This document shows, one piece after another, positions 1,015-63,188 of a stretch of 64,000 nt of DNA. Source of the stretch: an uncultured Bacteroidales bacterium (GTDB lineage: Bacteria; Bacteroidota; Bacteroidia; Bacteroidales; Paludibacteraceae); NCBI GenBank assembly GCA_944321745.1, contig CALUML010000001.1, positions 2,576 through 66,575 of the forward strand, in the 5' to 3' direction. Position 1 is the stretch's first letter. Each line of letters begins with the position of its first letter. The notes beneath the pieces are model-generated. The model was not told the origin of the DNA and ran no database searches. It saw only the letters and a list, made by a program, of their open reading frames with translations. A program made the position numbers and the translations under genes.

Positions 1015-1109
1015 AACAGTGATTAACGGTTAGTGATTAGTGATTAGTGCTGCGCCGTTAATCGTTAATCACTAACCGTTAATCACTAACCGTCAATCAC
1101 TAACCGTTA
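1015..1109. repeat. Inverted pair of heptamer tandem tracts (GTGATTA/ACGGTTA, then TAATCAC/TAACCGT)
   Basis: The 7-bp periodic tract at 1015-1049 is the reverse complement of the tract at 1055-1109. Confidence 0.85.
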
Positions 1110-1116
1110 TAACGGG

Positions 1117-1722
1117 ATGTTTGCAAGGGTACCGTTCATCATACGGATGTTCTTCCGGGGCTGTACTTGGCGGCGGAAGACCAGGGAGAAGGTGATATAC
1201 CTCACTTTCGATGACGGACCCGTGCCCGAAACCACCCCCTACTTGCTCGACCTGCTGGACGAATACGGCTGGAAGGCCACTTTCTTCTGCGTGGGTGAGA
1301 ACGTGCAGCGGCATCCCGAGCTGTACCGTGAAATACTGGCACGGGGACACCGCACGGGCAACCACACCTTCAACCACTTGCGGGGCACGCACTGCGGCAT
1401 CGAGGAATACGTGGACAACGTGTACAAGGCCGCCGAATACATCGACAGTCCCCTGTTCCGTCCGCCGCACGGACGCATGAAGGCCAGGCAGCGGCGTAAG
1501 CTGCGCGAACAGTACGAAATCATCATGTGGGACGTGCTCACGCAGGACTACAACAAGCTGCTTTCGCCCGACTACATCCTGGGCAAGATCAGGCGGCTGT
1601 CGCGCAATGGCTCCATCGTGGTGTACCACGACTCGGCGAAAGCCCGCAACAACCTGCTGGCCACCCTGCCCCGCGCCATCGAGTTCTGGAACGAGCAAGG
1701 CTTCCGCAGCGGACTGCTGTAG
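1117..1722 (+). CDS. Polysaccharide deacetylase (CE4/NodB)
   Basis: LTFDDGP, GNHTFNH, FRPPHG and IVVYHD motifs. Confidence 0.93.
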   Translation: MFARVPFIIRMFFRGCTWRRKTREKVIYLTFDDGPVPETTPYLLDLLDEYGWKATFFCVGENVQRHPELYREILARGHRTGNHTFNHLRGTHCGIEEYVDNVYKAAEYIDSPLFRPPHGRMKARQRRKLREQYEIIMWDVLTQDYNKLLSPDYILGKIRRLSRNGSIVVYHDSAKARNNLLATLPRAIEFWNEQGFRSGLL

Positions 1723-1745
1723 AGACGCAGTGTGCCGGTCTCTAC
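1719..1745. repeat. GTAG-type REP palindrome (GTAGAGAC-N-GTCTCTAC)
   Basis: gtagagacgcagtgtgccggtctctac; similar copies at 53946 and 54052. Confidence 0.75.
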
Positions 1746-1755
1746 AGCCCGCCCG

Positions 1756-1789
1756 TCATTGTTCATTATTAACTGTTCATTATTCATTG
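1756..1789. repeat. Heptamer tandem tract (TTCATTG/TTCATTA)
   Basis: tcattgttcattattaactgttcattattcattg; same unit as at 51073-51354. Confidence 0.7.
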
Positions 1790-1791
1790 CT

Positions 1792-2061: not shown

Positions 2062-2065
2062 ACAT

Positions 2066-2132
2066 CCCGGTTTCCCGGTTTCACAATTCCCCGTTTCAGC
2101 GATTCAGCGATTCAACGATTCAGCAATTCCCC
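2066..2132. repeat. Octamer tandem tract (CCCGGTTT/CAGCGATT)
   Basis: About 8 degenerate 8-bp units immediately before the mutL ATG. Confidence 0.75.
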
Positions 2133-3989: not shown

Positions 3990-4148
3990 AATTCCCCATC
4001 ACCCCCACTCTCCAATGCGGTCCGGCACGGGCGACGGACGGGACAAAAGTACCTCCGAGGGCGAAAACATGTTGTAAAACATATTTCCCGTGCTTCGTTT
4101 CTTGCACTTTTTAAACCTTGTACTGTTAACGGAAGCAGCAAAAAGTGG

Positions 4149-4156
4149 TAACTTTG
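4149..4156 (+). promoter_or_regulatory. Bacteroidota -7 promoter element (TAACTTTG) for the MFS gene
   Basis: Matches TAnnTTTG about 60 nt upstream of ATG 4218. Confidence 0.6.
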
Positions 4157-4217
4157 CCCGTCAAAAATCGTAGGACTATCATTTATTATAATAATTCATT
4201 TAAAACAATTAACAACA

Positions 4218-5483
4218 ATGGACACACAAAAGAAAAACTACACGCTGCCCATCATCATGATGATAGCCTTGTTCGCCATGATTTCGTTCGTGACGGGCTT
4301 GGCCAACCCGATGGGCGTAATCGTTAAAAACCAGTTCGGTGCGACGAACTTCATGTCGCAGCTGGGCACACTGGCCAACTTCATCGCCTACGCCTTCATG
4401 GGCGTGCCCGCCGGACTGATGTTGCAGAAAATCGGCTACAAGAAGACGGCCTTGGCCGCCGTGGCCATCGGCTTCATCGGGGTGGGCATCCAGTACCTGT
4501 CGGGCGTGGCCGAAAGCTTCTACGTGTACCTGCTCGGCGCGTTCGTGGCGGGCTTCTCCATGTGCATGCTCAACACGGTGGTGAACCCCATGCTCAACAC
4601 CCTGGGCGGTGGCGGCAAGAAGGGCAACCAGCTCATCCAGATTGGCGGCACGTTCAATTCGCTGATGGCCACCATCATCCCCGTATTGGTAGGTTACCTG
4701 ATGGGCGATGTGGCGCAGGCCACCATCAAGGATGCCAACCCGGCCATGTTCATCGCCATGGGCATCTTCGCGCTGGTATTCATCGTGCTGATGTTCGTCA
4801 ACATTCCCGAACCGGATGCCGCCACCGAGGGCGAAAAGCTGTCCTACCGCACGCTGTTCAAGTTCCGCCACTACGTGCTGGGCATCATCGCCATCTTCAT
4901 CTACGTAGGCGTGGAAGTGGGCATCCCCAACATCATGAACCTGTTCCTGACGCACCAGGACGTGGGCATGGAAGCCGCCGCGGCGGGTGCCATCGTGGGC
5001 ACGTACTGGTTCCTCATGCTTGTAGGCCGCTTCGTGGGCGGTGCCATCGGCGGCAAGGTATCGAGCAAGACGATGCTCGCCGTGACCTCGCTGTGCGGGC
5101 TGGTATTCGTGGCCGTTGCCATCTTCGCCTCCCCCACGACCACGGTCAACATGCCGGTGTTCAAGTCCGACATCTCCTTCGGCCTCACGGAAGCGCCCAT
5201 CAACGTCCTCTTCCTCGTACTGTGCGGCTTGTGTACCTCGGTGATGTGGGGCAGCATCTTCAACCTGGCCGTGGAAGGCATAGGGAAGTACGTGACCCTG
5301 GGTTCGGGTTTCTTCATGGTGATGGTGTGCGGCGGCGGCATCCTGCCTACCATCCAGGGCGCGATAGCCGACGCTTCGACCTACATGACGAGCTACTGGA
5401 TTATCTTCGCCGGGCTGGCCTACCTGCTGTATTACGCCGCCATCGGTTGCAAGAACGTGAACAAGGACATCAAGGTGGATTAA
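4218..5483 (+). CDS. MFS sugar transporter (FucP/GluP/NagP-like)
   Basis: About 12 TM helices; NP and 'IFIYVGVEVGI' motifs of the fucose/glucose-galactose permease family. Confidence 0.88.
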   Translation: MDTQKKNYTLPIIMMIALFAMISFVTGLANPMGVIVKNQFGATNFMSQLGTLANFIAYAFMGVPAGLMLQKIGYKKTALAAVAIGFIGVGIQYLSGVAESFYVYLLGAFVAGFSMCMLNTVVNPMLNTLGGGGKKGNQLIQIGGTFNSLMATIIPVLVGYLMGDVAQATIKDANPAMFIAMGIFALVFIVLMFVNIPEPDAATEGEKLSYRTLFKFRHYVLGIIAIFIYVGVEVGIPNIMNLFLTHQDVGMEAAAAGAIVGTYWFLMLVGRFVGGAIGGKVSSKTMLAVTSLCGLVFVAVAIFASPTTTVNMPVFKSDISFGLTEAPINVLFLVLCGLCTSVMWGSIFNLAVEGIGKYVTLGSGFFMVMVCGGGILPTIQGAIADASTYMTSYWIIFAGLAYLLYYAAIGCKNVNKDIKVD

Positions 5484-5512: not shown

Positions 5513-5541
5513 GGCTGCCTCCGATTGGGGGCAGCCTTTTT
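5513..5541 (+). terminator. Intrinsic terminator
   Basis: GGCTGCCTCC-gatt-GGGGGCAGCC stem followed by a T-tract. Confidence 0.8.
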
Positions 5542-5547
5542 ATTATA

Positions 5548-5735
5548 GGTACGCAAAGACGCGGGGTATTGGTACGCAAAGACGCGAAGACGCGAAGATT
5601 TAAAGGAAATGACCTTCCGCGTTTATCCGTTTAATCCGGCGTTATCCGTGTTCCGAGCCTGGGCCGCGAGGGGGCAAAAGAAAACGGATAAGCACGGGCG
5701 GGAACGTTTGCTCCCGAAGCCGTGCTTATCCGTTT
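5548..5735. repeat. Nonamer-type tracts (ACGCAAAGACGCG; TTATCCGT) and a long hairpin at 5682-5734
   Basis: ggtacgcaaagacgcg occurs twice; aaacggataagcacgg...ccgtgcttatccgttt is an inverted pair. Confidence 0.7.
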
Positions 5736-8808: not shown

Positions 8809-8836
8809 CAGTTACGAGTTACAAGTTACAAGTTGC
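8809..8836. repeat. Heptamer tract (AGTTACA)
   Basis: agttacgagttacaagttacaagttgc. Confidence 0.7.
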
Positions 8837-10386: not shown

Positions 10387-10476
10387 GCTTTTTACGCTTT
10401 ATCGTTTGTCTCTTCTTGGCTATCCAAAGCTCCCCCTTGGGGGGAGTTGAGGGGGCCGAGGGAGTTTGAGGGGGCT
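10274..10476. repeat. Inverted pair of CCCCCTCAACTCCCCC-N-GGGGGAG palindromic elements inside two adjacent CDSs
   Basis: 10301-10334 is the near-exact reverse complement of about 10422-10456. Confidence 0.8.
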
Positions 10477-12536
10477 GCGGCCGTGGTATTATTCGCCTTC
10501 GGATAAGCAATCCTTGTGTGGTAGATGTTGATGAGTTTCTCCGTGAACACGGCTTTGACCGCTTCCACGTCCTGGAAGGTGATGGGCGCGTCCTTGAACT
10601 GCCCGTCGGCTATCTGCGAGTCGATCATGTCCTCCACCATGTCGGCGATGGCCTTTTCCGTGTACTCTTTCAGGCTGCGCGAGCGGGCTTCCACCGCGTC
10701 GGCCATCATCAGGATAGCCGTCTCTTTGCTGTTGGGCAACGGGCCGGGATAGGTAAAAGCCGCCTCGTTGGGCTTCACGCCCGGGTGGGCGTTGATGAAC
10801 GAGTTGTAGAAATACTTCGCCTTGCTCTGACCGTGGTGCGTGCTGATGAAGCTGATTATCTGCTCGGGCAGGTGGTATTTCTTGGCCATCTGGATGCCGT
10901 TGGGCACGTGGTCGATGATGATGCGTGCCGCTTCCTCGTAGTCCTTTTCCGTCAGCGGGTTCTTGCCGCCCAGCTGGTTTTCGGTGAAGAAGCCGGGTGT
11001 CTTCATCTTCCCGATGTCGTGATACAACGCCCCGGTGCGCACCAGCAGGCTGTTGGCACCAATCTTCTTGGCCGCCTCGGTGGCGATGTTGGACACCTGG
11101 AGCGAGTGCTGGAACGTGCCGGGAGCCGTCTCGGCAAAGCGCAGCATCAGTTCGCTGTTGATGTTCGTCAGTTCCACCAGGGTCACGCTGGATATCAGCC
11201 CGAATATCTTTTCAAACAAATAAATGAGGATGTAGGCAAACAGCAGGAACATGCTGCTGATGGCGAAGTAGACCAGCACCACCCAGTCGATGCGCCCCAG
11301 GCCCCCTTCCGCCATGAGCCCGTAGGCCACGTACATCACCGTGTACGTGATGAAGACGTACAAGGCCGTTTGCGCCAGTTGCGAACGTTGCGCCAGGTCG
11401 CTCAGGCTGGTCACCGCCAACATGCCCACCGCCACCTGCAGCATGAGGAAGAGGAACGGGTCGGCCACCATGAACGAGATGATGATTGAAGCCACCATGT
11501 GCACGAACAAGGCCGTGCGCGAGTCGAAGAACACCCGGATGATGATGGGTATCAAGGCGTAGGGCACCATGTAATAGCTGATCATGCCGCTTTGGAAACG
11601 CACGGTGAGCGAGGCCAGCGCGACCACGATGAGCAGCAACAGGAGTACCAGCAGCAGGTTTCCGTAGCTGTCGTATATGCGGGGGCGGAACACGTAGAAG
11701 TAGGCAAACAGCAGCATCATGAAGCTCAGCACCAGCACTACGCGGCCTGTCGTGCCCGCCACCAGTTGCGGTTTGCTGTCGACCGCCTGGTCATCGTACT
11801 GCATCTTCAGGGAGGCCAGCACGGCACCAATCTCCGGAGTCACGATTTCACCCCGGTCAATGATGCGTTCGCCCGCCTGCACCACTCCCATGGTGAGCGA
11901 CAGGCTGCCCAGCAATTCCGCCTCGGCCGTTGACGAGGCCACCGTGTCGCGGCTCACGTTTTCCACCACGTACTCACTCAGGTTGTACGAGGCCAGCACG
12001 TTGCGGTCGGTCGCCACGTCCGTGTTCAGCAACTCTTCATAAGCCTCCTTGGGCGTGAGGAATCCGTCCACCGGCATCGAGCGCGTCATGCGGTCCGGGT
12101 AGATGCAATACACCCGCTCCACGCCCTGCTGCCGCAAGGCCTCGCGGTCTTCCGAAGCCATCACCCCCCGGGCATACACCTCGCCCAACCGTTGCCGCAC
12201 CATCTTCTTCTGCATCGGCTGGTAGCCGTTGCGCCGTTGGAAGTCGGCCACGAACCGCTCGTACTGCATCGAAGCCTTGGCCGTGTCCATGCGGTAATAA
12301 GGAACGAAGTCGCGCAGTAGTTCCGCGCGGTCGTGCGCCAGCTGCTCGTCGCTTTTGTACACCGGGAAGTCGAACGGCGCCACCACTTGCTCGTGCATCC
12401 ACGGCCTGCCTACCTCGTACTTGTAACGGAACGCATCGTGCGAAGGGAACAGCTGTACGATGATGATGACCGTGCACACGAACAGACCGCACTTGAACAC
12501 GTTCTGCATGTGCCGCTTCGTCAGTTGGAGTTTCAT
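10392..12536 (-). CDS. 7TM-HD membrane phosphohydrolase (PgpH/YqfF-like cyclic nucleotide phosphodiesterase)
   Basis: Extracellular 7TMR-HDED region, 7 TMs, APGTFQHS, YHDIGK and ADAVEA motifs. Start placed at MKLQL because the TTG at 12560 lies in a repeat. Confidence 0.9.
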   Translation of the reverse strand: MKLQLTKRHMQNVFKCGLFVCTVIIIVQLFPSHDAFRYKYEVGRPWMHEQVVAPFDFPVYKSDEQLAHDRAELLRDFVPYYRMDTAKASMQYERFVADFQRRNGYQPMQKKMVRQRLGEVYARGVMASEDREALRQQGVERVYCIYPDRMTRSMPVDGFLTPKEAYEELLNTDVATDRNVLASYNLSEYVVENVSRDTVASSTAEAELLGSLSLTMGVVQAGERIIDRGEIVTPEIGAVLASLKMQYDDQAVDSKPQLVAGTTGRVVLVLSFMMLLFAYFYVFRPRIYDSYGNLLLVLLLLLIVVALASLTVRFQSGMISYYMVPYALIPIIIRVFFDSRTALFVHMVASIIISFMVADPFLFLMLQVAVGMLAVTSLSDLAQRSQLAQTALYVFITYTVMYVAYGLMAEGGLGRIDWVVLVYFAISSMFLLFAYILIYLFEKIFGLISSVTLVELTNINSELMLRFAETAPGTFQHSLQVSNIATEAAKKIGANSLLVRTGALYHDIGKMKTPGFFTENQLGGKNPLTEKDYEEAARIIIDHVPNGIQMAKKYHLPEQIISFISTHHGQSKAKYFYNSFINAHPGVKPNEAAFTYPGPLPNSKETAILMMADAVEARSRSLKEYTEKAIADMVEDMIDSQIADGQFKDAPITFQDVEAVKAVFTEKLINIYHTRIAYPKANNTTAAAPSNSLGPLNSPQGGALDSQEETNDKA

Positions 12537-12547
12537 ATCTTTCTTTA

Positions 12548-12705
12548 TTTCAGATTTCAAATTGCAGATTGCAGATTAAGCGTTCCCGCAGATGGCGCAG
12601 ATGGGACGCAGATGGTTTTCTCTGCCGTAGGGCGATGCCCTACGCTGAGTGCCACAAGGCCGTTGGCCTTGCTACCCCTCGCCTCTCACTCCTTACCCCT
12701 CGCCC
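12548..12705. repeat. Composite repeat: TTTCAGA heptamers, CGCAGAT nonamers, a 46-bp REP (12626-12671) and CCTCTCA heptamers
   Basis: Read directly; the same modules recur at 21201, 28990 and 62816. Confidence 0.85.
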
Positions 12706-13702: not shown

Positions 13703-13864
13703 GCACACGGATCAGACCGATCAAACGGATTAACACGGTTTTTTTCAGGGAACGCGAATAACGCAAACAAGCACAAATAGGCGCAAATCTGCGTTCATCT
13801 GCGCCTGTCTGCGGGAAACAATCCATCCGCGTCATGCCGTTCCATCCGCTCCATCCGTGTTCCC
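13703..13864. repeat. Nested inverted nonamer tracts (CACGGAT...ATCCGTG; CGCGAAT; ATCTGCG)
   Basis: Outer cacggatc..acggat arms pair with atccgc..atccgtgttccc; inner aatctgcg tract. Confidence 0.7.
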
Positions 13865-14827: not shown

Positions 14828-14915
14828 GTGCCTGCGGAAATTTTACGGCGTTACTACGGAATTTCCGCCGCGTGCCTACGGAATTTCCGCCGCGTGCCTA
14901 CGGAAATTTCACGCC
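14828..14915. repeat. Four tandem 22-bp units (GTGCCTACGGAATTTCCGCCGC)
   Basis: Units start at 14828, 14850, 14872 and 14894; internal CGGAA-T-TTCCG palindrome. Confidence 0.85.
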
Positions 14916-15034
14916 GGACGGACAAAAAAATCACGTGCCCCGCGCCCCATCTCTTGCCGCGTGGCACGATTGTTGTTATTCCATACATGGAAAAACATCC
15001 CCACACCAAACAAATAAAACAGGAGGAACATCAT

Positions 15035-16408: not shown

Positions 16409-16416
16409 GTGCGAGT

Positions 16417-16515
16417 TTAAAGGTGGAAAGTATAAAGGTGAAAGTATAAAGGGAAAAGTATAAAGGGAAAAGGGTGAAAGCGCTACCCGCTCCTCGCTAC
16501 CCGCTTCCCGCTACC
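16417..16515. repeat. Heptamer tracts (TAAAGGG/AAAGTAT, then GCTACCC)
   Basis: 7-bp periodicity throughout the gap. Confidence 0.75.
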
Positions 16516-20544: not shown

Positions 20545-21201
20545 CTACTCCGCCACCTCAGCCTCGTCGGGCACTGCTCGGCGGCGGTAGAAGCAGGTGA
20601 GTCCCCTCACCCGGTCATCGAAAGTGAGCACGGACTGCTCGCCGTAGTTTTGGAACACGCACAGCAGCCCGAAGTCGCCAGCGCAGCACAAACCGTGCAG
20701 CCCCAACACCGCCAGGAACGAGTAAAATAGCGGCTGGTTGTAGCATACGGCCATGCCCGCCAACGCCAGCACGGTGATGGTCACAGCAGGAGCCAACGCC
20801 ACGATGCGGAAGCGGCGGTAGTCGAGCACCTCACCATCGGCCTGCACGTAGAACTGGAACTTGCGCGGGTTCGCGCCCCACGACACGTGCCGCGCCCCCA
20901 CATAGCGGTAGGCCAAGGCATGAATGGCCTCATGCAGCACGATACCCACGGTGAACAGAGCCACCGCACCGCCCAGCAGATACAATAAATACAGGTATTC
21001 CCGCTTCGTGTAAAACGGCATGAACGCCTTGAACAGCCCCAGCATGATAACCAGCCAACCTGTCAGTTGGTACATGTTGGCCACCCTCGCCCAGCCTTCG
21101 TTACGCTCCATTTCCCTTTTGACGAAAGGCTTCACCTCGTCATGCTTCACAGCCGCCACCAGTTCGTAATCGGGGCTGCCTGTCAGTTCTTGGATATTCA
21201 T
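20545..21201 (-). CDS. DUF3267-like membrane protein (putative zincin peptidase)
   Basis: LHEAIHA (HExxH), 'VALAP' and 'GDF' motifs with TM helices. Confidence 0.8.
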   Translation of the reverse strand: MNIQELTGSPDYELVAAVKHDEVKPFVKREMERNEGWARVANMYQLTGWLVIMLGLFKAFMPFYTKREYLYLLYLLGGAVALFTVGIVLHEAIHALAYRYVGARHVSWGANPRKFQFYVQADGEVLDYRRFRIVALAPAVTITVLALAGMAVCYNQPLFYSFLAVLGLHGLCCAGDFGLLCVFQNYGEQSVLTFDDRVRGLTCFYRRRAVPDEAEVAE

Positions 21202-21340
21202 TTCAAATTTCAGATTTCAAATTTCAGATTTCAGATTGTTCCCGCAGATTTCGCAGATTGACGCAGATTGTTACTTGCAATTTGTTTACTTGTTTACTTG
21301 TTTACTCGTCTACTTGTTTACTCGTTTACTCGTCTACTCG
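21201..21340. repeat. Composite: TTTCAGA heptamers, CGCAGAT nonamers and TTTACTTG/TCTACTCG octamers
   Basis: Three consecutive periodic tracts at 21201-21237, 21241-21269 and 21281-21340. Confidence 0.85.
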
Positions 21341-21343
21341 TAG

Positions 21344-28989: not shown

Positions 28990-29205
28990 CAAGGCCAACG
29001 GCCTTGCGGCGTTCAGCACAGGGCAACACCCTACAGATAGAGGTAAGAGGTAAGGAGTGAGAGGCGAGAGGCGAGCAGTTCTCCATGCAGATTCCTTTCA
29101 ACCTGTGTTATCCGCATGCAAAAATTTCCGCGCCCATTCGCACGATTTGCGTTCATTCGCGTTCCCCAAATTTGAAATCTGAAATCTGAAATCTGGAATC
29201 TGAAT
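28990..29205. repeat. Composite: 46-bp-family REP (28990-29034), GAGGTAA heptamers, ATTCGC nonamers and TCTGAAA heptamers
   Basis: Read directly from the sequence. Confidence 0.85.
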
Positions 29206-31700: not shown

Positions 31701-31885
31701 ATCGAATGTAAAAGTCGGACAAATGTAGGGATTTTGATTTGCATATACAAGAGTCTGGGCAAATAACCCGCACAAGTCCGGGGATAAGATGCCATATCCG
31801 CGCAAAGCAGGCACTTTATCTTTCGGGGAAATGGGCGAAGCGCGTTTCTGTTTTCGCCAGCAGATATTTTCCCGTTCATGCGGGA

Positions 31886-32031
31886 ATGTTTTCCCATTTA
31901 TGCGGATAAGTTTTACTGCCCACAGTTATGGGTCGTACAACCCATAACTGTGAGTTGTACGACCCACAACTGTGGGTTATATAACCCATAACTGTGGGCA
32001 GTAAAACTTATCCGTATAAATGGGAAAACAT
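31886..32031. repeat. Large palindrome containing four 22-bp palindromic units (CCCAYA-NN-TRTGGG)
   Basis: Near-perfect ~47-bp arms; units start at 31919, 31941, 31963 and 31985; flanked by further 22-bp AAACATCTGCTG repeats. Confidence 0.85.
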
Positions 32032-32302
32032 CTGCTGGCAAATAAGCAAACATCTGCTGACAAATTGGAAAACATCCGCGCACCATCCAGGAAACATGTG
32101 CTTGCAGATGAGCCGGGAGGGGGAAGAGCATGGGATGACAAACTATCCTGGTACCGCCTCTACATGTCTTTATCGCGCCCCACATGGCATGAGAAAAACC
32201 AGTCGCACGGACAGCAAGAAGCCGGAACGAGGAGACTGCACACATTGTCCACCCCACGTTCCACCACGCCAGGCTCGCATTGCCAATCGCGCAACCAGCA
32301 AC

Positions 32303-44062: not shown

Positions 44063-44069
44063 CTAACAA

Positions 44070-46650: not shown

Positions 46651-46652
46651 GA

Positions 46653-47380: not shown

Positions 47381-47686
47381 TCACACCTTGATTTCCACTT
47401 CCACGCCGCTCGGCAATTCCAGCTTCATCAATGCATCAACCGTCTTGCTCGTCGAGCTGTAGATGTCGATCAGACGCTTGTAGGATGACAGTTCGAATTG
47501 TTCGCGCGACTTCTTGTTCACGAAAGTCGAACGGTTCACCGTGAAAATACGCTTGTGCGTAGGCAACGGTATCGGGCCGCTGACCACGGCACCCGTGCTT
47601 TTTACCGTCTTCACAATCTTCTCGGCCGACTTGTCGACCAAGTTGTGATCGTAGGATTTCAGTTTGATTCTGATTTTTTGACTCAT
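47381..47686 (-). CDS. rpsJ: 30S ribosomal protein S10
   Basis: [10 protein letters not shown] and GPIPLPT motifs. Confidence 0.98.
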
Positions 47687-47721
47687 TCCTTTTAAAATTA
47701 CAATTATTCAAATTATGATGG

Positions 47722-47766
47722 AAACGCTCCCGGTTAAGAGTCATTCGCTAACCGGGAACGTTTTTT
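47722..47766. other. Hairpin between fusA and rpsJ
   Basis: AAACGCTCCCGGTTA...TAACCGGGAACGTTT; may be a terminator or a stability hairpin. Confidence 0.55.
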
Positions 47767-47770
47767 CCTC

Positions 47771-51025: not shown

Positions 51026-51072
51026 GATGTTTTTTTTTTATTGGCAATGAATCAAGCGAAAATATTTATTCC

Positions 51073-51428
51073 AATGAACAATGAGCAATAAACAATGAAC
51101 AATGGACAACGCAATTTAATTGAAAATGGATAATTGAAAATTGGAAACGCACGGACGATACGACCAAGGCCAAAGGCCTTGCAGCATTCAGCGTAGGGCA
51201 ACGCCCTACGGGGGCAGGGTACGTCCGCCCGTGCGTTGTTCATCGTGCGTTGTTCATTGCACGTAGGGCGTTGCCCTACGCTGAACGCCACAAGGCCTTT
51301 GGCCTTGACCGTGCCGACCGCGCATTGTTCATTGTTCATTGTTCATTATCCATTAAATAAACCACGGAGACACAGAGGCACAGAGGGATGTTACCCATCG
51401 ACTCTGTCTCTCCGCGTCTCCGTGGTTT
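51073..51428. repeat. Nested inverted composite: AATGAAC heptamers, REP (51165-51210), inverted REP (51262-51307), GTTCATT heptamers, then a CACGGAG/CACAGAG nonamer hairpin (51359-51428)
   Basis: Read directly from the sequence. Confidence 0.9.
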
Positions 51429-56163: not shown

Positions 56164-56178
56164 AAGTGTAGAGTTTAC

Positions 56179-56250
56179 CTCTAAATCCCCTGAAGGGGAC
56201 TTTCCCGTCCGCTTGGAGTCGGATGAAAGTCCCCTTCAGGGGATTTAGGG
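56179..56250. repeat. Inverted pair CTAAATCCCCTGAAGGGGACTTT / AAAGTCCCCTTCAGGGGATTTAG
   Basis: Perfect 23-bp arms; same CCCC-N-GGGG family as 8842 and 10274-10476. Confidence 0.85.
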
Positions 56251-56253
56251 GTT

Positions 56254-57129: not shown

Positions 57130-57166
57130 GTTGAAAAATATTGTTTGTTGTTTTGTATTGTTAAGT

Positions 57167-57270
57167 AGCGGAGAGCGGGGAGCGGGGAGCGGGGAGCGGG
57201 AAGTTTAGCTACAAGCTACGAGCTACAAGCTACAAGCTACAAGTGCTTCCCGCTATTCGCTACTCACTAT
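57167..57270. repeat. Heptamer tracts (AGCGGGG, AGCTACA, CGCTAYT)
   Basis: Three consecutive 7-bp tracts; the last overlaps the argB stop. Confidence 0.85.
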
Positions 57271-58045
57271 CCGCTACGGTTATTTGTGTTCCCTCGTCCG
57301 GGCGGGCTATGTGGTCGGCGCGGGTAATGACCACGCGCTTCACGCCTGCCCGCAGGGCTTCGAAGGCGTTTTCGAGCTTGGGTATCATGCCGCCTTGTAT
57401 GGTGCCGCGTTCCACGCAGGCTTTGAAGGTGGCGGGGTCGAGGTGGGGAATGACGCTGTTGTCGTCCCGCTCGTCGGCCAGCACGCCTTTTTTTTCGAAG
57501 CAGAACATGAGCGTGACTTCGAAGTGCCGTGCCAATGCTTTGGCGGCCTCGGCGGCAATGGTGTCGGCATTGGTGTTGAGCAGGTGGCCTTGCCCGTCGT
57601 GGGTGAGCGGTGCCAGCACGGGCACCACGCCCCGGCTTATGAGGTCGGCCAGCAGGGCGGCGTTCACCTGGCGCACGTCGCCCACGAAACCGTAGTCCAC
57701 TTCGCCTGCCGGGCGTTTCGCGGAGCGCATGTAGTCCATGTCGGCCCCGGTCAGTCCGAGCGCGTTCACGCCCAAGGCTTGCAGCCCGGCCACGACTTGC
57801 TTGTTGACCAGTCCGCCGTACACCATCGTAACCACGCGCAGCATGTCGGCGTCGGTAATGCGGCGTCCGTTCACCATGCGGCTTTCAATGCCGAGGCGTG
57901 CGGCGAGGGCGGTGGCCGAGCGTCCGCCGCCGTGTACCAGCACCTTGTGCCCGGCTATCTGTGCAAAGTCGGCAAGAAGCTGCCGCAACGAGGCTTCTTC
58001 CTCTACTATCTTGCCGCCTACTTTGATAAGTGTGAGTTGGTCCAT
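57260..58045 (-). CDS. argB: Acetylglutamate kinase
   Basis: KVGG, VHGGG, LNTNAD and GGMIPK motifs. Confidence 0.95.
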   Translation of the reverse strand: MDQLTLIKVGGKIVEEEASLRQLLADFAQIAGHKVLVHGGGRSATALAARLGIESRMVNGRRITDADMLRVVTMVYGGLVNKQVVAGLQALGVNALGLTGADMDYMRSAKRPAGEVDYGFVGDVRQVNAALLADLISRGVVPVLAPLTHDGQGHLLNTNADTIAAEAAKALARHFEVTLMFCFEKKGVLADERDDNSVIPHLDPATFKACVERGTIQGGMIPKLENAFEALRAGVKRVVITRADHIARPDEGTQITVADSE

Positions 58046-58047
58046 TC

Positions 58048-58200
58048 AGTTACGAGTTACGAGTCAGCTACAAGCTACGAGTGGCTTGCAGCCTTCTTAC
58101 TTTTTACCCTTGTTCATAGGGCGTTGCCCTATGCTGAACGCCACAAGGCCGTTGGCCTTGGATGTTTCATTCTTTCCTTTTTCCTTTCACCCTTTCACTT
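58048..58200. repeat. Composite: AGTTACG heptamers, 46-bp REP (58115-58160) and CCTTTYA heptamers
   Basis: Read directly from the sequence. Confidence 0.85.
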
Positions 58201-59151: not shown

Positions 59152-59166
59152 ATTATATATGTACAA

Positions 59167-59245
59167 TGTCTACGGTCGACAGTCAGCAGTCAACGGTCGA
59201 TGGCTTATGCTGCACGGTTGACTGTTGACCGTAGACTGTAGACTG
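59167..59245. repeat. Inverted heptamer tracts (GTCAACA / TGTTGAC)
   Basis: gtctacggtcgacagtcagcagtcaacgg ... gttgactgttgaccgtagactgtagac. Confidence 0.8.
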
Positions 59246-61255
59246 TTATTTCTTCGTTATTTTGGCTGCCCAGCCGCCGCCGGGGGCAAGTTTCACTCCA
59301 AATTTCATCGACATGGGGTCGCATGTCAGGGTGAAATTCTCTTTCCGGTAGTCGCGTGCGGCGCGGTCGGCGTTGATGCCGTCTTGGAATGCTTCTATGT
59401 CGTAGGAGCCTTCGGCGAGGAAAGCGGAGAGGTCGATGGTTACCTCGCGTGCGTCCCAGTTGTTGAGCGCGCCGACATACCAGGTGTCGCCGCTGCGGCG
59501 GGCGATGATGACGTATTCGCCTACCCGGCCGTCGAGCGCGACGGTTTCATCCCACACGGTGGGAATCCCGGTGATGAAGTCCGTGCATTCTTCCTCCTGT
59601 TCGTAATTGGACGGGCTGTCGCACAGCATGTTGAGCGGCGACTCGAACACCACGTACTCGGCCAGCTGGTGGCAGCGCGTGCCTTGGCTCATGGCCTCGC
59701 TGTTCACCGGGCGGTAGTTGCCGCGCGTGGCGTTGCGCATGGCCCCTTGCGTGTAGTCCATCGGCCCGGCCACCATGCGCACGAAGGGGATGGTTACGTC
59801 GTAAGTTACCTGGTCCACGTGCGTGCCGCCCCACTTGAGCTGTTCCAACCCGTGCACGCCTTCGTAGTTGATGACGTTCGGGTAGGTGCGGTGCAGGCCG
59901 GTGGGCTTGTAGGTGCCGTGGAAGTCAATGAGCAGTTTGTACTTGGCGGCCATTTCGGCGGCGCGGCGGTGGAAATCGACCATCATCTGGTCGTCGCGGT
60001 CCATGAAGTCGACCTTGAAGCCCTTGATGCCCATGTCGGCATAGTGGCGGCACACGCGCTCCATGTCGCGGTCGAAGGCGTAGTAACCGGCCCAGAGTAT
60101 CAGCCCTACGCCCTTGCTCCCGGCATAGTCGGCCAGCATGGGCAGGTCGATTTCGGGTATCACTTGCATGAGGTCGGCTTGCAGGTTCACGGCCCAGCCT
60201 TCGTCGAGGATGACGTATTCAATGCCCTGGCGTGCGGCGAAGTCGATATAATATTTATAGGTATCGTTGTTGATACCGGCCCGGAAGTCCACGCCGTAGA
60301 GGTTCCAGTCGTTCCACCAGTCCCAGGCCACCTTGCCGGGCTTCACCCACGAGAAGTCCATGTCCGCCTGCGGGGTGGCTAGGCGGTACACCATATCGCT
60401 GTCGGCCAGTTCGTGGTCCTGTTCCGAAACCACGAGGTAACGCCAGGGGAAGTCCGTGCCCCGGTCGAATGCGGCAATGTAGTCTTCGCGCTCCGTGACC
60501 ACCATTTGCAGGCGGTTGTGGCCGCCCTGCTCCATCTTGGCCGGGTAGGGGGCGAACACGCCTTGAAGCGACGTGCCGCCCGCCGTGTAGAGGTACATGC
60601 CGGGGTAGTTCATGAGGTCGGCTTCGCCGATGCACACCTTCTTGCCGTTGGCACCCTCGACCAGCAGGGGGAGGAAGGCGTATTTGCGCTTGTCCCAGTT
60701 GGAGAGCTTGTCGTGGGTGTAGGTGTTTTCAAATGAGTTGAAGAACTGCGACTCGAAGTCGGCCGTGCGGTCCTCGCGGATGTAGGGGATGTAGGCCGTC
60801 CAGTCGGCCGGGAAGTTGAACACGGCCTCCTCGCTCTTGACCTGGAAGGGCTTTTTCGACGTGCTGGTGAAGCGGTAGGCCACCCCGTCGTCGTAGGCGC
60901 GGAAGGTAATGCGGTAGTTGCCCCGGAACGTCATTTGCAATTCGTTGTAGCGGTCGAGCACTTCTTTCCGCTTGTACACCGGGGCGGCAATCACCTCGTC
61001 CACACTGCGGGTGGCGGCCTTCAGCAAGCGGGGGTTCACGCCCCAGGCCGTTCCGTCGGCCAACGTCATGGACAAGGGCGAGCGGTCGAGCAGCACGTCG
61101 CCATTGTGCGCCACGGTGTATTCCATCCGTTCGCCTACGCTGACCACGACGACCAGTTCGCGGTCGGGCGAGGTCAATGTGTAATCTTTGGCGGAAGCCA
61201 GCGGCAGTCCGCCCAAACATGCCAGTGCGGCAATGAAAAGCTTTCTCTTTTTCAC
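59246..61255 (-). CDS. Glycoside hydrolase family 97
   Basis: FRAYDDGVAYRF, SWVKPGKVAWDWW, LDEGW and GPMDYT motifs; TATGTTTG at 61307-61300. Confidence 0.93.
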   Translation of the reverse strand: MKKRKLFIAALACLGGLPLASAKDYTLTSPDRELVVVVSVGERMEYTVAHNGDVLLDRSPLSMTLADGTAWGVNPRLLKAATRSVDEVIAAPVYKRKEVLDRYNELQMTFRGNYRITFRAYDDGVAYRFTSTSKKPFQVKSEEAVFNFPADWTAYIPYIREDRTADFESQFFNSFENTYTHDKLSNWDKRKYAFLPLLVEGANGKKVCIGEADLMNYPGMYLYTAGGTSLQGVFAPYPAKMEQGGHNRLQMVVTEREDYIAAFDRGTDFPWRYLVVSEQDHELADSDMVYRLATPQADMDFSWVKPGKVAWDWWNDWNLYGVDFRAGINNDTYKYYIDFAARQGIEYVILDEGWAVNLQADLMQVIPEIDLPMLADYAGSKGVGLILWAGYYAFDRDMERVCRHYADMGIKGFKVDFMDRDDQMMVDFHRRAAEMAAKYKLLIDFHGTYKPTGLHRTYPNVINYEGVHGLEQLKWGGTHVDQVTYDVTIPFVRMVAGPMDYTQGAMRNATRGNYRPVNSEAMSQGTRCHQLAEYVVFESPLNMLCDSPSNYEQEEECTDFITGIPTVWDETVALDGRVGEYVIIARRSGDTWYVGALNNWDAREVTIDLSAFLAEGSYDIEAFQDGINADRAARDYRKENFTLTCDPMSMKFGVKLAPGGGWAAKITKK

Positions 61256-61381
61256 GATAGAAACAGTTAAATGTTATACATAACGGGGAAATTGCGTTGC
61301 AAACATACGGAAAAAAGAGCAAGCAGGCAAGCAGTCCGGGGATGAATATCCGCAACCGGCCCATTCTGCCTGCCACACTCC

Positions 61382-61651
61382 CCTCCCCGCCCTTCGGCAT
61401 CCAAACTTCCCCGCCTGCCTATCCAAACTTCCGCGCTTGCCCGACTATTCTTCTTGCTTTGCTCACGTATTCTACAAACTAAGTCTTAGTTTTTACAAAC
61501 TAAATCTTAGTTTTTATAAACCAAGTCTTAGTTTATACAAACCAAGCCTTAGTTTGTAGAATGTCTGCCCACGGTCGGAAGAATATCCGGGCAAGCGCGG
61601 AAGTATGGATAAGCAGGCTGGGAAGTTTGGATGCGGGAAAGGCGGGGGAGG
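61382..61651. repeat. ~270-bp foldback element: ~72-bp inverted arms around four 21-bp palindromic units (TACAAACTAAGTCTTAGTTTT)
   Basis: Arms at 61382-61453 and 61578-61651; units start at 61473, 61494, 61515 and 61536. Confidence 0.88.
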
Positions 61652-61765
61652 AATTAAGGAAGCATACGGCCTCGGCAAGGCGGTCGGGTGAAAAAGATAT
61701 TGGCAAAATGATAGGAATGTATCGGAAAAGAATTATCTTTGCCCTTGTTTCACGAGCAAAATGAC

Positions 61766-62806
61766 ATGGACCCCAACAGAGCCGTACTCTTGATATTCAC
61801 CGGCGGCACCATCAGCATGGCCGAGGACGCGGGCACCGGGGCGTTGCGCCCGATAGACTTCGAACGGCTGCAGGAACTGATGCCCGAACTGCGCCAGACG
61901 GGCATCCGCATCCACAGCGTGCCCTTCCTGCCCCTCATCGACTCGTCGGACGTGGAACCGCCGCTATGGGAGCGGCTGGCAGTCACCATACGCGACCATT
62001 ACGACCGCTACGACGGCTTCGTGGTGCTGCACGGCACCGACACGATGGCCTACTCCGCCTCCGCGCTTAGCTTCATGCTCGAGAACCTGGGCAAACCGGT
62101 CATCTTCACCGGGTCGCAGCTGCCCATCGGCATGTTGCGGTCGGACGCGAAGGAGAACCTGCTCACCGCCATCGAGATTGCCGCCGACAAGACTGCCGAC
62201 GGGCGTACCATGGTGCCCGAGGTGTGCATCTTCTTCGAGGACACGCTCTTCCGCGCCAACCGCACCACCAAAAAGAACGCCGAGCACTTCAACGCCTTCA
62301 ATTCGTACAACTACCCCCCGCTGGCCAAGGCGGGCGTGCACATCAAGTACAACATGGCGGCCATCCACCACCCCGACGTGGAGCGTCCGCTACGCATCCG
62401 CACCAAGACGGACACGAACATCGCCATCCTGAAACTCTACCCGGGCATCAACGAGGGCATGGTGAACGCCATATTGGGCATCCCGCACCTGCGGGCCGTG
62501 GTGCTGGAGTCGTTCGGCGCGGGCAACGCCCCCCGGCGCAGGTGGCTGTACGACGCGCTGAAAGCGGCCACCGACCGGGGCATCATCATCGTGAACAAGA
62601 CACCGTGCAGCACCGGCTCGGTGGAGATGGGCCGCTACGAGACCAGCCTCAACCTCATCAACGCCGGGGTTATCAGCGGCTACGACATCACCACGGAGGC
62701 GCTCGTCACCAAGCTGATGTACCTGCTGGGCGAATGCGCCTCCACCGACGAAGTGAAAGCCCTGCTCGGACGGAGCATCTGCGGGGAAATGACGGTGAAC
62801 GGATGA
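61766..62806 (+). CDS. ansA: L-asparaginase type I (cytoplasmic)
   Basis: TGGTI, HGTDTMAY and TGSQLP motifs; TATCTTTG at 61734-61741. Confidence 0.93.
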   Translation: MDPNRAVLLIFTGGTISMAEDAGTGALRPIDFERLQELMPELRQTGIRIHSVPFLPLIDSSDVEPPLWERLAVTIRDHYDRYDGFVVLHGTDTMAYSASALSFMLENLGKPVIFTGSQLPIGMLRSDAKENLLTAIEIAADKTADGRTMVPEVCIFFEDTLFRANRTTKKNAEHFNAFNSYNYPPLAKAGVHIKYNMAAIHHPDVERPLRIRTKTDTNIAILKLYPGINEGMVNAILGIPHLRAVVLESFGAGNAPRRRWLYDALKAATDRGIIIVNKTPCSTGSVEMGRYETSLNLINAGVISGYDITTEALVTKLMYLLGECASTDEVKALLGRSICGEMTVNG

Positions 62807-62815
62807 AAGGGGAGA

Positions 62816-63188
62816 GTTGAAAATTGAAAATTGAAAGTTGAAAGGGGAAAGGAGAAAGGGAAAAGCTCAAGGCCAACGGCCTTGTGGCGTTCAGCGTAGG
62901 GCAACGCCCTATGAACAGAGGCAAGGGGGAAAGGAAAAAGTCCAAGGCCAACGGCCTTGTGGCGTTCAGCATAGGGCAACGCCCTATGAACAGCGGTGAG
63001 GAATGAGAGGTAAGAGATGAGGTGTAAGGAGCAAGCATCTCTCTGTGCAAATCCATCCAATCCGTGTTGTCCGTGTGCTAATATAATAACTGAAGGTTGA
63101 ATAACAGATTAACTGAAAATCTGCGCTTATCTGCGCTATCTGCGGGAAATAATCTGAAATCTGTAATTTGAAATCTGACAATCTGAAA
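62816..63188. repeat. Composite: TTGAAAA/AAAGGRG heptamers, two 46-bp REPs (62868-62913, 62943-62988), GAGGTAA, ATCCGT/ATCTGCG nonamers and TCTGAAA heptamers
   Basis: Read directly from the sequence. Confidence 0.88.

What the first reader, a model, noticed from the sequence alone, without database searches (positions are those of the whole stretch)
1015..63188. Modular 'repeat grammar' filling almost every non-ribosomal intergenic gap
Seen: about 18 gaps outside the ribosomal operon are built from a shared kit of repeats. The kit has 7-mer tracts of at least ten different unit sequences (GTGATTA, TTCATTG, AGTTACA, TCTGAAA, AGCGGGG, AGCTACA, GTCAACA, TTGAAAA, AAAGGGA, GAGGTAA). It also has 8-mer tracts (2066, 21281), 9-mer tracts (CGCAGAT, CGCAAAG, CACAGAG, CACGAAT) and REP hairpins. 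Periods stay fixed while unit sequences differ, tracts often come as inverted pairs, and they abut start or stop codons. Module order recurs: 9-mer then TCTGAAA at 12548 (rev), 21201 (rev), 29133 and 63118; REP next to a GAGG heptamer at 12626, 28990 and 62943. The roughly 30 gaps of the ribosomal superoperon have none. Inference: independent slippage would not give this; it looks like footprints of period-specific mobile systems that nest into one another at gene boundaries. From memory, unverified, 7-mer tracts flank four-helix-bundle genes and 9-mers flank GxxExxY genes. No such gene is in this window.
Basis: partly seen in the sequence, partly recalled or inferred. Interest (0 to 1): 0.75.

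Follow-up and report, generated by a model that had tools for sequence, protein, structure and literature searches.

The report
Repeat arms of hairpin gene cassettes
The short 7- to 10-base tandem repeats that fill many gaps between genes of this chicken-gut Bacteroidales genome are real, and they match the hairpin "arms" that elsewhere in the genome and its relatives enclose two small genes of unknown function, which links a long-unexplained class of bacterial repeats to specific gene families.

Summary
Period-7 arrays number 870 in the genome against 64 in a Markov control. 80% of them lie in the 12% of DNA that is non-coding, and about 19% of non-coding DNA is such tracts. In the window, 16 of 26 gaps outside the ribosomal operon carry them and 0 of 9 inside do, so "almost every gap" is overstated.

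All five four-helix-bundle genes (PF05635) and the one GxxExxY nuclease gene (PF13366) of this genome sit between inverted tandem tracts. So do 21 of 30 four-helix-bundle genes from 30 related genomes.

Congeners show filled and empty sites, a full cassette at a junction that is gene-less in the window, and 7-base unit gains and losses between strains. Gene-less hairpins keep the cassette polarity (67 of 73). Solo tracts upstream of start codons give unusually unstructured leaders.

My best reading is that these are gene-less derivatives and half-arms of two cassette families, reshaped by slippage and copied as composites. No mobilising enzyme, target duplication or movement was seen.

This scan has noted the same cassette-repeat link on other DNA many times. 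I found no paper that describes it.

The parts
1018..1109 (+). Gene-less foldback filling the gap between a stop (1014) and a start (1117). It consists of (AGTGATT)n, a 6-nt loop, then (TAACCGTTAATCAC)n.
   Evidence: TRF and sequence. The RNA fold has a 32-bp stem, -44.6 kcal/mol, z -7.3. G001 has the same units, while G003 and G005 have other units at the same junction.
2065..2129 (+). Octamer tracts TCCCGGTT and TTCAGCGA between stop 2061 and start 2133.
   Evidence: G001 has diverged octamers at the same site, and G005 has AGATTCA heptamers there.
5540..5640 (.). ACGCAAAG/ACGCGAAG octamers (5574-5598) and CGTTTAATC 9-mers (5620-5638). These are GxxExxY-type arms.
   Evidence: The same ACGCGAAG unit flanks the genome's only GxxExxY gene at G000:C87. 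The gap content is not alignable with G001.
8810..8834 (.). AGTTACA heptamer tract, x3.6.
12547..12615 (-). Solo leader composite read on the minus strand: (CCATCTGCG)x3-GGAAC-(AATCTGC/AATCTGA)n, about 10 nt before the start codon of the gene 10392-12535.
   Evidence: The same order occurs at 21200-21270 and 63119-63189. It is conserved in G001 (93% identity up to 12602).
12624..12700 (-). REP-like double hairpin (12624-12671) followed by GAGG-type heptamers (12673-12700).
   Evidence: The REP has about 160 copies in the genome.
13753..13857 (.). 9/10-mer tracts CGCAAATAAG (13753-13788) and TCCATCCGC (13822-13857) around the divergent gap 13777-13833.
16414..16515 (+). AAAGTAT/AAAGGGA heptamers with a 14-nt higher order (16414-16474), then CGCTACC heptamers (16481-16515), ahead of start 16533.
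   Evidence: G001 has related tracts plus an extra insert of about 250 nt.
21200..21341 (-). Three abutting solo tracts filling a stop-to-start gap: (GAGTAAAC)x7, (AATCTGCGN)x3, GGAAC, then (AATCTGA)x5 touching the start codon at 21201.
   Evidence: The gap is 142 nt here, 88 nt in G001 (fewer units), 4 nt in G003, and 8 nt and 63 nt without tracts in two outgroups. As RNA the leader is less structured than all 200 shuffles, z +2.6.
28990..29204 (+). Composite of REP (28990-29034), GAGG heptamers (29039-29075), ATTCGCGTTC 10-mers (29133-29164) and AAATCTG x5.3 (29168-29204), abutting a stop codon.
   Evidence: Related composites occur at C3, C182 and C1:76097, 69-73% identical over 206-228 nt.
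51072..51386 (.). Nested palindrome: (CAATGAA)n 51072-51109, REP 51164-51209, a 14-mer x2 centre at 51230-51257, inverted REP 51263-51307 and (CATTGTT)n 51323-51354. It is followed by CACAGAGG x3 at 51363-51386.
   Evidence: The self-inverted match 163-407 against 53933-53689 of C1 is 73% identical.
57167..57276 (-). Nested hairpin. The outer arms are (AGCGGGG)n 57167-57200 and CGCTATT-type units at 57251-57276. An (AGCTACA)n tract at 57207-57243 lies in the loop.
   Evidence: Fold z -5.6. G001 has different tracts here and G003 has none. One 7-nt unit is missing in the strain of run X6. AGCTACA is the arm unit of the four-helix-bundle cassette at G000:C202.
58046..58198 (.). AGTTACG/AGCTACA heptamers (58046-58082), REP (58115-58161) and TTTCCTT/CCTTTCAC tracts (58173-58198).
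   Evidence: The orthologous junction in G005 holds a complete PF05635 gene, a truncated copy and CTAGTGA-type arms.
59180..59247 (-). Gene-less foldback of GTCGACA/GTCAACG-type heptamers.
   Evidence: Fold z -7.4. G001 has an unrelated palindrome at this junction. A GACCGTT unit is inserted at 59240 in run X6.
62804..63189 (+). 392-nt composite. In order: TGAAAGT/GAAAGGG heptamers, two REP copies (62868-62913 and 62943-62988, a 75-nt tandem duplication), GAGG heptamers, ATCCGTGT 9-mers, (ATCTGCGCT)x2.7 and (AATCTGA)x5.4, ending 9 nt before start 63199.
   Evidence: G001 has the same module kinds in a different order, in 267 nt. The composite recurs at C19 (80% over 374 nt), C16, C2 and C1:79587.
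31867..32076 (.). Arrays of 22-nt palindromic units. Further arrays lie at 14854-14916 and 61399-61555.
   Evidence: Genome-wide there are 287 period-22 arrays against 0 in the control. The orthologous G001 gap is about 100 nt against 644 nt here, while G001 holds dozens of copies elsewhere.

Best explanation
Shown: the tracts match the arms of two families of small, promoter-less hairpin cassettes that sit between the genes of operons in this lineage. One family carries a four-helix-bundle gene (PF05635, the 23S rRNA intervening-sequence protein family) between inverted arrays, mostly of 7-mers and sometimes of 8-mers. The other carries a GxxExxY PD-(D/E)XK nuclease-fold gene (PF13366) between inverted 8-10-mer arrays. 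The window holds only gene-less forms:
- full foldbacks that span a gap from stop codon to start codon;
- nested foldbacks;
- half-arms that survive next to start codons, where a non-self-complementary tandem array gives an unstructured leader that suits Shine-Dalgarno-less Bacteroidota translation.

Inferred: these gene-less forms derive from the cassettes by loss of the gene. After arrival the arrays grow and shrink by slippage in whole units, up to the neighbouring codons. New elements then land inside or beside old ones. Whole composites that include an abundant REP-like double hairpin are copied to new gaps. This gives the recurring "grammar".

The insertion chemistry is not shown. The nuclease-fold protein and the nucleic-acid-binding four-helix-bundle protein are the only candidates encoded by the cassettes.
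For: Association in this genome. All 5 TIGR02436 genes and the 1 TIGR04256 gene are flanked by inverted tandem tracts of matching unit and are co-oriented with their neighbours. Only about 30 of roughly 2400 ORFs are so enclosed, and the rest of those are ordinary housekeeping genes.

Association in relatives. 21 of 30 four-helix-bundle genes from 30 genomes have strict inverted arms (19 heptamer, 2 octamer), and 4 more match loosely. GxxExxY genes carry 8-10-mer flanks, including TTACGCAGAT.

Genome level. Four genomes with 7-15 four-helix-bundle genes have 11-21 period-7 arrays per 100 kb. Four genomes with none have 0-6.

Shared polarity. 67 of 73 gene-less foldbacks between co-directional genes have the purine-rich arm first (p 4e-14). 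Cassettes show the same polarity in 19 of 25 cases.

Filled versus empty sites:
- The GxxExxY cassette is present in G000 and G005. G001, G002 and G003 have clean gaps of 57-69 nt at that junction.
- The window junction 58046-58194 carries a full gene plus a truncated copy in G005.
- Gap 21202-21343 is 4-8 nt, or free of tracts, in G003 and two outgroups.
- A related four-helix-bundle gene sits one junction further on in G003.

Slippage. Strains differ by 7-nt unit indels and G000 and G001 differ in copy number.

Leaders and hairpins. Leaders that contain a tract are less structured than leaders without one at matched GC. Foldbacks fold with z -5.6 to -7.4.

Composite copying is seen.

Precedent. 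The Coxiella 23S rRNA IVS has tandem heptamers next to its S23p ORF inside an RNase III-cut stem (PMC4990558).
Against: - No transposase, integrase, RAYT (PF01797) or reverse transcriptase (PF00078) was found in the 89%-complete assembly.
- No target-site duplication could be read at the filled/empty sites.
- No coding remnants of either gene family lie in any G000 foldback. Derivation by gene loss is therefore documented only once, in G005.
- About three quarters of heptamer tracts have no inverted partner.
- Several abundant unit families (AATCACT, AACAATG, AACTCGT) have no resident gene with those arms.
- Resident cassettes bearing the commonest units is also what an abundance-weighted null would give.
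- Different units at the same junction in different species could reflect evolution in place rather than replacement.
- The genome-level contrast is 4 against 4 related genomes, which are not independent.
Confidence: 0.55

Rival explanations
1. Tracts first. The arrays arise and diversify in place, by replication slippage and concerted evolution. Selection acts for operon-internal RNA hairpins and for unstructured leaders. The four-helix-bundle and GxxExxY genes are passengers that preferentially settle in, or survive inside, pre-existing hairpins. They are not the source of the tracts.
For: - Strains differ by unit-sized indels.
- G000 and G001 differ in copy number.
- There are 14- and 21-nt higher-order periods.
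- The same junction carries different units of the same period in four congeners.
- Related four-helix-bundle genes carry different arms.
- No coding remnants lie in the foldbacks.
- Polarity and low leader structure point to selection at the RNA level.
Against: - Slippage alone does not explain why periods 7 to 10 dominate, or why matched inverted arms form.
- Multi-module blocks of 85-140 nt appear at junctions that are 4-8 nt in relatives.
- Composites of 200-370 nt are dispersed at 70-80% identity.
- Genomes without four-helix-bundle genes have near-background heptamer arrays.
Confidence: 0.25
2. Regulon sites. The arrays are binding sites for sequence-specific RNA- or DNA-binding proteins, possibly the four-helix-bundle proteins themselves. 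On this view they control translation or processing of the adjacent genes, as proposed for TAACTGA repeats in Beggiatoaceae and for paired repeats in Geobacter metallireducens.
For: - AAATCTG tracts lie next to start codons in the sense orientation 55 times and in antisense once.
- The three such leaders in the window are kept in G001 while neighbouring modules change.
- One resident four-helix-bundle gene (G000:C201) carries the same unit as its arms.
- Published proposals exist (PMC4679880; PMC2700814).
Against: - Turnover between congeners is rapid, and many unrelated units occupy the same junction.
- Dozens of unit families stand against six candidate binder genes.
- The orientation rule is equally explained by cassette polarity together with tolerance of unstructured leaders.
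- No binding and no co-regulation were tested.
Confidence: 0.15
3. Assembly or binning artefact of a metagenome-assembled genome.
For: The genome is a 207-contig MAG and contigs often end in repeats.
Against: The same tracts are found in independently assembled relatives. They are also in contigs of public runs from several studies, which bridge the gaps at 57130-57259 and 59167-59245.
Confidence: 0.01

Closest known systems
ORF-bearing intervening sequences (IVS) of 23S rRNA (Coxiella burnetii S23p IVS; Leptospira), PMC4990558
   Same: The gene family is the same (PF05635). The gene sits in the loop of a long inverted-repeat stem, tandem heptamers lie next to its start codon with copy number varying between strains, and it is transcribed as part of a host transcript. 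These elements have long been suspected to be mobile.
   Different: Here the cassettes lie between protein-coding genes rather than in rRNA. Gene-less arms outnumber the genes by more than 100 to 1 and make up about 19% of non-coding DNA. RNase III processing was not tested.
Intergenic heptamer direct repeats (TAACTGA in Beggiatoaceae, Cyanobacteria and some Bacteroidetes, PMC4679880; cyanobacterial STRR heptamers, from my own knowledge)
   Same: Tandem heptamers lie in intergenic DNA, often a few nt upstream of start codons in the sense orientation. They are mixed with other heptamers, absent from orthologous gaps of close relatives, and break assemblies.
   Different: That work reported no mechanism and no associated gene. 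Here the units are many, and they are tied to arms of PF05635 cassettes in the same genome.
Inverted GGGAATC heptamer arrays of Xanthomonas (PMC4692102) and paired 9-mer/7-mer 'global regulator sites' of Geobacter metallireducens (PMC2700814)
   Same: Convergent pairs of tandem 7-mers or 9-mers between genes, with length variation between close relatives.
   Different: Those were read as G-quadruplex or regulator sites with no cargo gene. Here polarity, cargo genes and filled/empty sites are documented.
REP/REPIN elements with RAYT transposases
   Same: Abundant intergenic hairpins, together with a small single-copy-per-type gene that is itself flanked by its own repeats.
   Different: No RAYT (PF01797) was found. 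The arms are tandem arrays of variable unit number rather than a fixed palindrome. The flanked genes are a four-helix-bundle protein and a PD-(D/E)XK-fold protein.
MITEs, including the BrickBuilt minisatellite MITE of Porphyromonas gingivalis (PMC4596501)
   Same: Gene-less intergenic inverted-repeat elements with presence/absence between strains. The 22-nt arrays of this genome resemble BrickBuilt's 23-nt minisatellite.
   Different: No transposase-bearing parent and no target-site duplication were seen. The ends are tandem short repeats whose sequence differs from copy to copy while the period is kept.

Membership tests
IVS-like four-helix-bundle hairpin cassette | A PF05635/TIGR02436 gene lies between the arms. 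| tested here: not met
   No such gene is in the window. All hits in the genome lie on other contigs. The window holds only gene-less arms. The feature is met for 5 cassettes elsewhere in the genome.
IVS-like four-helix-bundle hairpin cassette | Inverted arms built of tandem 7-mers (or 8-mers) able to form a long stem. | tested here: met
   Foldbacks at 1018-1109, 59180-59247 and 57167-57276 fold with z -5.6 to -7.4. Arms occur around 21 of 30 family genes.
IVS-like four-helix-bundle hairpin cassette | Excision of the stem from the transcript by RNase III. | not testable with these tools
   Only assembled contigs of RNA runs were available, and none covers a gap.
GxxExxY (PF13366) nonamer-armed cassette | 8-10-mer tandem arms with a CRCRRA-type core flanking a PDDEXK_3 gene. 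| tested here: met
   G000:C87 has ACGCGAAG arms. Family genes have ACACGAAG, CACGAAT, CACAGAG and TTACGCAGAT flanks, though strict inverted pairs were detected in only 4-5 of 26. The window has the arms (12587, 21243, 63119, 5574) but not the gene.
MITE | Terminal inverted repeats. | tested here: met
   Terminal inverted repeats are present in the foldbacks.
MITE | Target-site duplication. | tested here: inconclusive
   No duplication could be read at the filled/empty sites, because the flanks are too diverged.
MITE | A parent element that encodes a transposase. | tested here: not met
   The only cargo genes are PF05635 and PF13366. No Y1 transposase or reverse transcriptase was found. The assembly is 89% complete.
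REP/RAYT (REPIN) | A RAYT gene (PF01797) flanked by its own REPs. | tested here: not met
   No PF01797 match in the assembly, although a REP-like double hairpin has about 160 copies.
Contingency-locus simple sequence repeats | Unit-number variation between strains. | tested here: met
   7-nt indels at 57167 and 59240 in run X6.
Contingency-locus simple sequence repeats | Placement in a promoter spacer or reading frame, so that unit number switches a gene on and off. | tested here: not met
   Tracts lie between stop and start codons inside operons, and 80% are non-coding. Gaps with conserved promoter sequence, such as 3990-4217, lack them.

The most novel reading that the evidence does not exclude
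The 7-mer and 8-10-mer arrays are the recognition arrays of their own cassette proteins, namely pentameric four-helix-bundle binders and GxxExxY nucleases. On this reading each protein lineage maintains or spreads a family of gene-less arms in trans. That would be a REPIN/RAYT-like pairing of autonomous and non-autonomous elements, but built on tandem repeats and proteins that are not transposases. The host has taken over the arms as operon hairpins and as unstructured translation leaders. This would explain the general excess of heptamer repeats between bacterial genes and give a function to the IVS-protein family.
Probability: 0.3. Interest if true: 0.85.

Novelty: new variant of a known kind. 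Interest (0 to 1): 0.62.

Why it matters
Heptamer and nonamer tandem repeats between bacterial genes have been reported for decades, in cyanobacterial STRR, Beggiatoaceae, Xanthomonas and Geobacter, without an origin. The 23S rRNA IVS protein family and the GxxExxY family are large and have no known function. This genome puts the pieces side by side: the genes in their arms, hundreds of gene-less arms with the same polarity, filled and empty junctions within one genus, and a measurable effect on leader structure. That makes several things directly testable: binding or cleavage of cognate arms by the proteins, RNase III processing, and the effect of tracts on translation. It also matters in practice, because these tracts break short-read assemblies and can remodel the ends of neighbouring genes.

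Tried and rejected
- Other cargo. About 30 ORFs in G000 lie between matched inverted tracts. The ten I annotated are ordinary genes (DUF3467, YgjP-like, MoxR ATPase, HAD, TPR, aspartate-semialdehyde dehydrogenase, exonuclease, PepSY-like, MscS) and one has no family. They are chance or polarity-driven flanking, not cargo.
- RAYT and reverse transcriptase. No match to either. DUF559 has two hits, neither a small gene armed with tracts.
- Pseudogene remnants. tblastn with 35 four-helix-bundle proteins and 26 GxxExxY proteins finds only the six intact genes.
- Resident cassette units versus abundant gene-less families. The units are ranks 1 and 2 (AAATCTG, AAGCTAC), but this is not significant against a null weighted by abundance, so it is not used as evidence.
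- Same-site GxxExxY cassettes of G000 and G005. The proteins are 59% identical and G015's copy is 62% identical. This cannot decide between vertical descent with three losses and independent insertions.
- Protein-arm correspondence. Pairs with similar arms have more similar proteins (54% against 41% mean identity), but shared descent explains this equally well, so it is no evidence for recognition.
- Public reads. All runs were served as contigs. The RNA contigs cover genes only and say nothing about processing. Most 'joints' are cross-matches between repeat copies.
- Literature. I found no paper that links these gene families to intergenic tandem arms outside rRNA.


Full report
WHAT IS THERE

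The window comes from contig C1 of a 2.66-Mb, 207-contig, 89%-complete metagenome-assembled genome with 57% GC. Its nearest named relatives are uncultured Bacteroidales and Paludibacter/Paludibacteraceae MAGs. Near-identical DNA is held by chicken-gut metagenomes from several studies.

Reading the gaps directly confirms two recurring orders. The first is (ATCTGCGNN)x3-GGAAC-(AATCTGA)n-ATG at 12548 (reverse), 21201 (reverse) and 63118. The second is a REP-like double hairpin followed by GAGG-type heptamers at 12624, 28990 and 62943.

IS IT MORE THAN CHANCE?

- period 7: 870 vs 64
- period 8: 306 vs 79
- period 14: 246 vs 9
- period 21: 161 vs 3
- period 22: 287 vs 0

I used a crude codon-model gene call, so starts are approximate. 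On that call, 696 of 870 period-7 arrays lie in the 11.8% of the genome that is non-coding. Such arrays cover 18.6% of non-coding bases. 736 of 1512 gaps of at least 40 nt carry one.

In the window I count 16 of 26 gaps outside the ribosomal operon with 7-10-mer tracts, and 0 of 9 gaps of at least 40 nt inside it (Fisher p 0.0015). "Almost every gap" is therefore too strong. The gaps without tracts include ones with conserved promoter sequence, such as 3990-4217.

The empty ribosomal operon is not a special case. Genome-wide occupancy rises steadily from 14% where flanking genes are below 45% GC to 56% where they are above 62% GC.

THE LINK TO TWO GENE FAMILIES

The genome has five TIGR02436/PF05635 genes and one TIGR04256/PF13366 gene, none of them in the window. 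All six sit between inverted tandem tracts of matching unit, and all six are co-oriented with both neighbours.

The arms of the four-helix-bundle genes are:
- AGCTACA/TGTAGCT
- CAGATTT/AAATCTG
- AATTAAC/GTTAATT
- octamers GCGGAATC/CGATTCCG
- octamers GAATGACG/AATCAGTT

The GxxExxY gene has ACGCGAAG/CTTAGCGT arms.

In 30 genomes of the same taxonomic family, taking one gene per genome, 21 of 30 four-helix-bundle genes have strictly inverted arms (19 heptamer, 2 octamer). Four more match loosely. GxxExxY genes in those genomes are flanked by 8-10-mers such as ACACGAAG, CACGAATTTA, AACACAGAGG and TTACGCAGAT. These are the same unit types as the window's CGCAGAT, CGCAAAG, CACAGAG and CACGAAT tracts. 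TRF detects strict inverted pairs in only a minority of these imperfect arrays.

About 30 other ORFs in this genome are enclosed by matched inverted tracts. The ones I annotated are ordinary housekeeping genes.

At genome level, four genomes with 7-15 four-helix-bundle genes have 11-21 period-7 arrays per 100 kb sampled. Four genomes with none have 0-6. This genome has 33, against a Markov expectation of about 2.4. These genomes are relatives, so the contrast is suggestive and not a formal test.

ANATOMY AND POLARITY

About a quarter of heptamer tracts, a third of octamer tracts and half of nonamer tracts have an inverted partner within 200 nt, mostly 20-60 nt away. These form long hairpins:
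- 1012-1120 folds at z -7.3.
- 59165-59250 folds at z -7.4.
- 57160-57285 is nested, with an AGCTACA tract in the loop, and folds at z -5.6.
- 51072-51354 is a nested palindrome of heptamer arms around an inverted REP pair.

Each unit family obeys an orientation rule: one strand follows stop codons and its complement precedes start codons. Of 73 gene-less foldbacks between co-directional genes, 67 have the purine-rich arm first in the direction of transcription (p 4e-14). Cassettes that carry a gene show the same polarity in 19 of 25 cases.

The remaining tracts are solo. The commonest family, AAATCTG, lies next to a start codon in sense orientation 55 times and in antisense once. The three-tract leader at 21198-21345 is less structured than all 200 shuffles (z +2.6). 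Genome-wide, leaders with a tract in the last 40 nt fold more weakly than leaders without one, within GC bins. In the 35-45% GC bin the means are -7.7 and -10.5 kcal/mol (p 6e-8).

From established knowledge, Bacteroidota largely lack Shine-Dalgarno-led initiation and favour unstructured leaders. This fits tolerance or selection of such half-arms.

TURNOVER

Three congeners were compared, with gene identities of roughly 90% (G001), 77% (G003) and 70% (G005).

- Junction 1015-1116 carries a foldback in all four genomes, but with different units in G003 and G005.
- Gap 21202-21343 is 142 nt here and 88 nt in G001. The modules are the same, with 3 heptamers instead of 5 and 2 octamers instead of 7. 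It is 4 nt in G003, and 8 nt and 63 nt without tracts in two outgroups. The tract block was therefore gained in the G000/G001 lineage.
- Gaps 5484, 57130, 58046 and 59167 have unrelated content in G001.
- Gap 62807-63198 has the same module kinds in another order in G001.
- Junction 58046-58194 holds a complete PF05635 gene in G005. Beside it lies a truncated copy that keeps an arm and the last few dozen bases of the gene, closed by an inverted arm. This is the one direct example of a cassette decaying towards a gene-less element.
- The GxxExxY cassette of G000:C87 is also present in G005, with 59% protein identity and different arms. G001 (flanks 92% identical), G002 and G003 have clean gaps of 57-69 nt at that junction.
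- The four-helix-bundle cassette of G000:C202 is present in G001 with 2 arm units instead of 11. G003 has gene-less tracts at that site and a related gene, 74% identical at nucleotide level, one junction further on with other arms.
- Between strains, contigs of run X6 that bridge the gaps lack one 7-nt unit at 57167 and carry an extra GACCGTT at 59240.

So whole-element gain, loss and replacement occur together with unit-by-unit slippage.

WHY MODULE ORDER RECURS

The REP-like double hairpin has about 160 copies. The whole content of gap 62807-63198 recurs elsewhere: 80% identity over 374 nt at C19, and 75-77% over 213-256 nt at C16, C2 and C1:79587. Part of the "grammar" is therefore composites being copied as units. 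It need not mean that each module finds the same neighbour independently.

WHAT IS NOT SHOWN

- No Y1 transposase (RAYT) and no reverse transcriptase were found in the assembly.
- No target duplication could be read.
- No coding remnants lie in this genome's foldbacks.
- RNA data were contigs only.
- Proteins with similar arms are more alike (54% against 41% identity), but common descent explains that equally well.
- Several abundant unit families have no resident gene.

COMPARISON WITH WHAT IS KNOWN

- The closest described thing is the ORF-bearing 23S rRNA intervening sequence. In Coxiella, the same gene family sits in an RNase III-cut stem, with tandem GACAGAT heptamers of variable number before its start codon. 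It has long been suspected to be a mobile element (PMC4990558).
- Intergenic heptamer arrays without a known origin are described in Beggiatoaceae, Cyanobacteria and a few Bacteroidetes (PMC4679880).
- Inverted GGGAATC pairs are described in Xanthomonas (PMC4692102).
- Paired 9-mer and 7-mer sites are described in Geobacter metallireducens (PMC2700814).
- The 22-nt arrays resemble the BrickBuilt minisatellite MITE of Porphyromonas gingivalis (PMC4596501).
- I found no paper that ties the arrays to these genes outside rRNA.
- Earlier notes of this scan report the same cassette-arm link on many other genomes. I treated them as leads and retested the claims here.

VERDICT

The mechanism of spread remains inferred.

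The window adds five things:
- a genome-scale view in which a fifth of non-coding DNA is such arms;
- a strong transcription-relative polarity shared by gene-less and gene-bearing forms;
- a link between solo tracts and unstructured leaders;
- several filled, empty and replaced junctions within one genus;
- unit-level polymorphism between strains.

Noticed in passing
window 31867-32076, 61399-61555, 14854-14916; G001 gap orthologous to 3990-4217: A separate class of arrays made of 21-22-nt palindromic units. Genome-wide there are 287 period-22 arrays against 0 in the control. The element at 31815-32364 is missing from the orthologous G001 gap (about 100 nt against 644 nt), although G001 has dozens of copies elsewhere. 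G001 in turn has an array of about eight 22-nt units at the 3990 gap that G000 lacks. The class resembles the BrickBuilt MITE of P. gingivalis.
   Followed up: partly
window 32000-48000 compared with the rest; L219-L223 (G005): The ribosomal-protein operon is 44-48% GC, while most other genes are 55-65% GC. A 42-kb sample of the congener G005 is only 37.6% GC against 57% for this genome. The G000/G001 lineage may have undergone a recent rise in GC that constrained genes lag behind. Tract occupancy tracks flanking GC.
   Followed up: partly
G000:C87 about 4765-4810 (L169), compared with G001, G003 and G005: The C-terminal tail of the gene next to the GxxExxY cassette differs between genomes (DTLRRFNELL* here, ATLQEF* in G001). 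Here it runs through ACGCTAAGACGC tract units, so arms can remodel the ends of neighbouring proteins.
   Followed up: no
window 56164-56253; L037 2860-2985; G001 gap orthologous to 59167-59245: Another dispersed palindrome family built on CCCCTNAAGGGG / GGGGTTGGGGG motifs. It is conserved between G000 and G001 at 56164, and in G001 it takes the place of the heptamer foldback at 59167.
   Followed up: no
window 62854-62993: A 75-nt tandem duplication (93% identical) that contains the REP-like double hairpin plus GAAAGG-type units. It shows that modules also multiply locally as larger blocks.
   Followed up: no
G000:C7:40145-40462 and C12:30591-30824: Two DUF559 (PF04480) matches. One lies inside a 1416-aa open frame. 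Neither is a small gene armed with tracts.
   Followed up: no
G000 genome, REP-like element (for example window 28990-29034): A double hairpin of about 46 nt (AAGGCCNNNGGCCTT plus TAGGGCNNNGCCCTA) has about 160 copies. No RAYT gene was detected in the 89%-complete assembly.
   Followed up: partly
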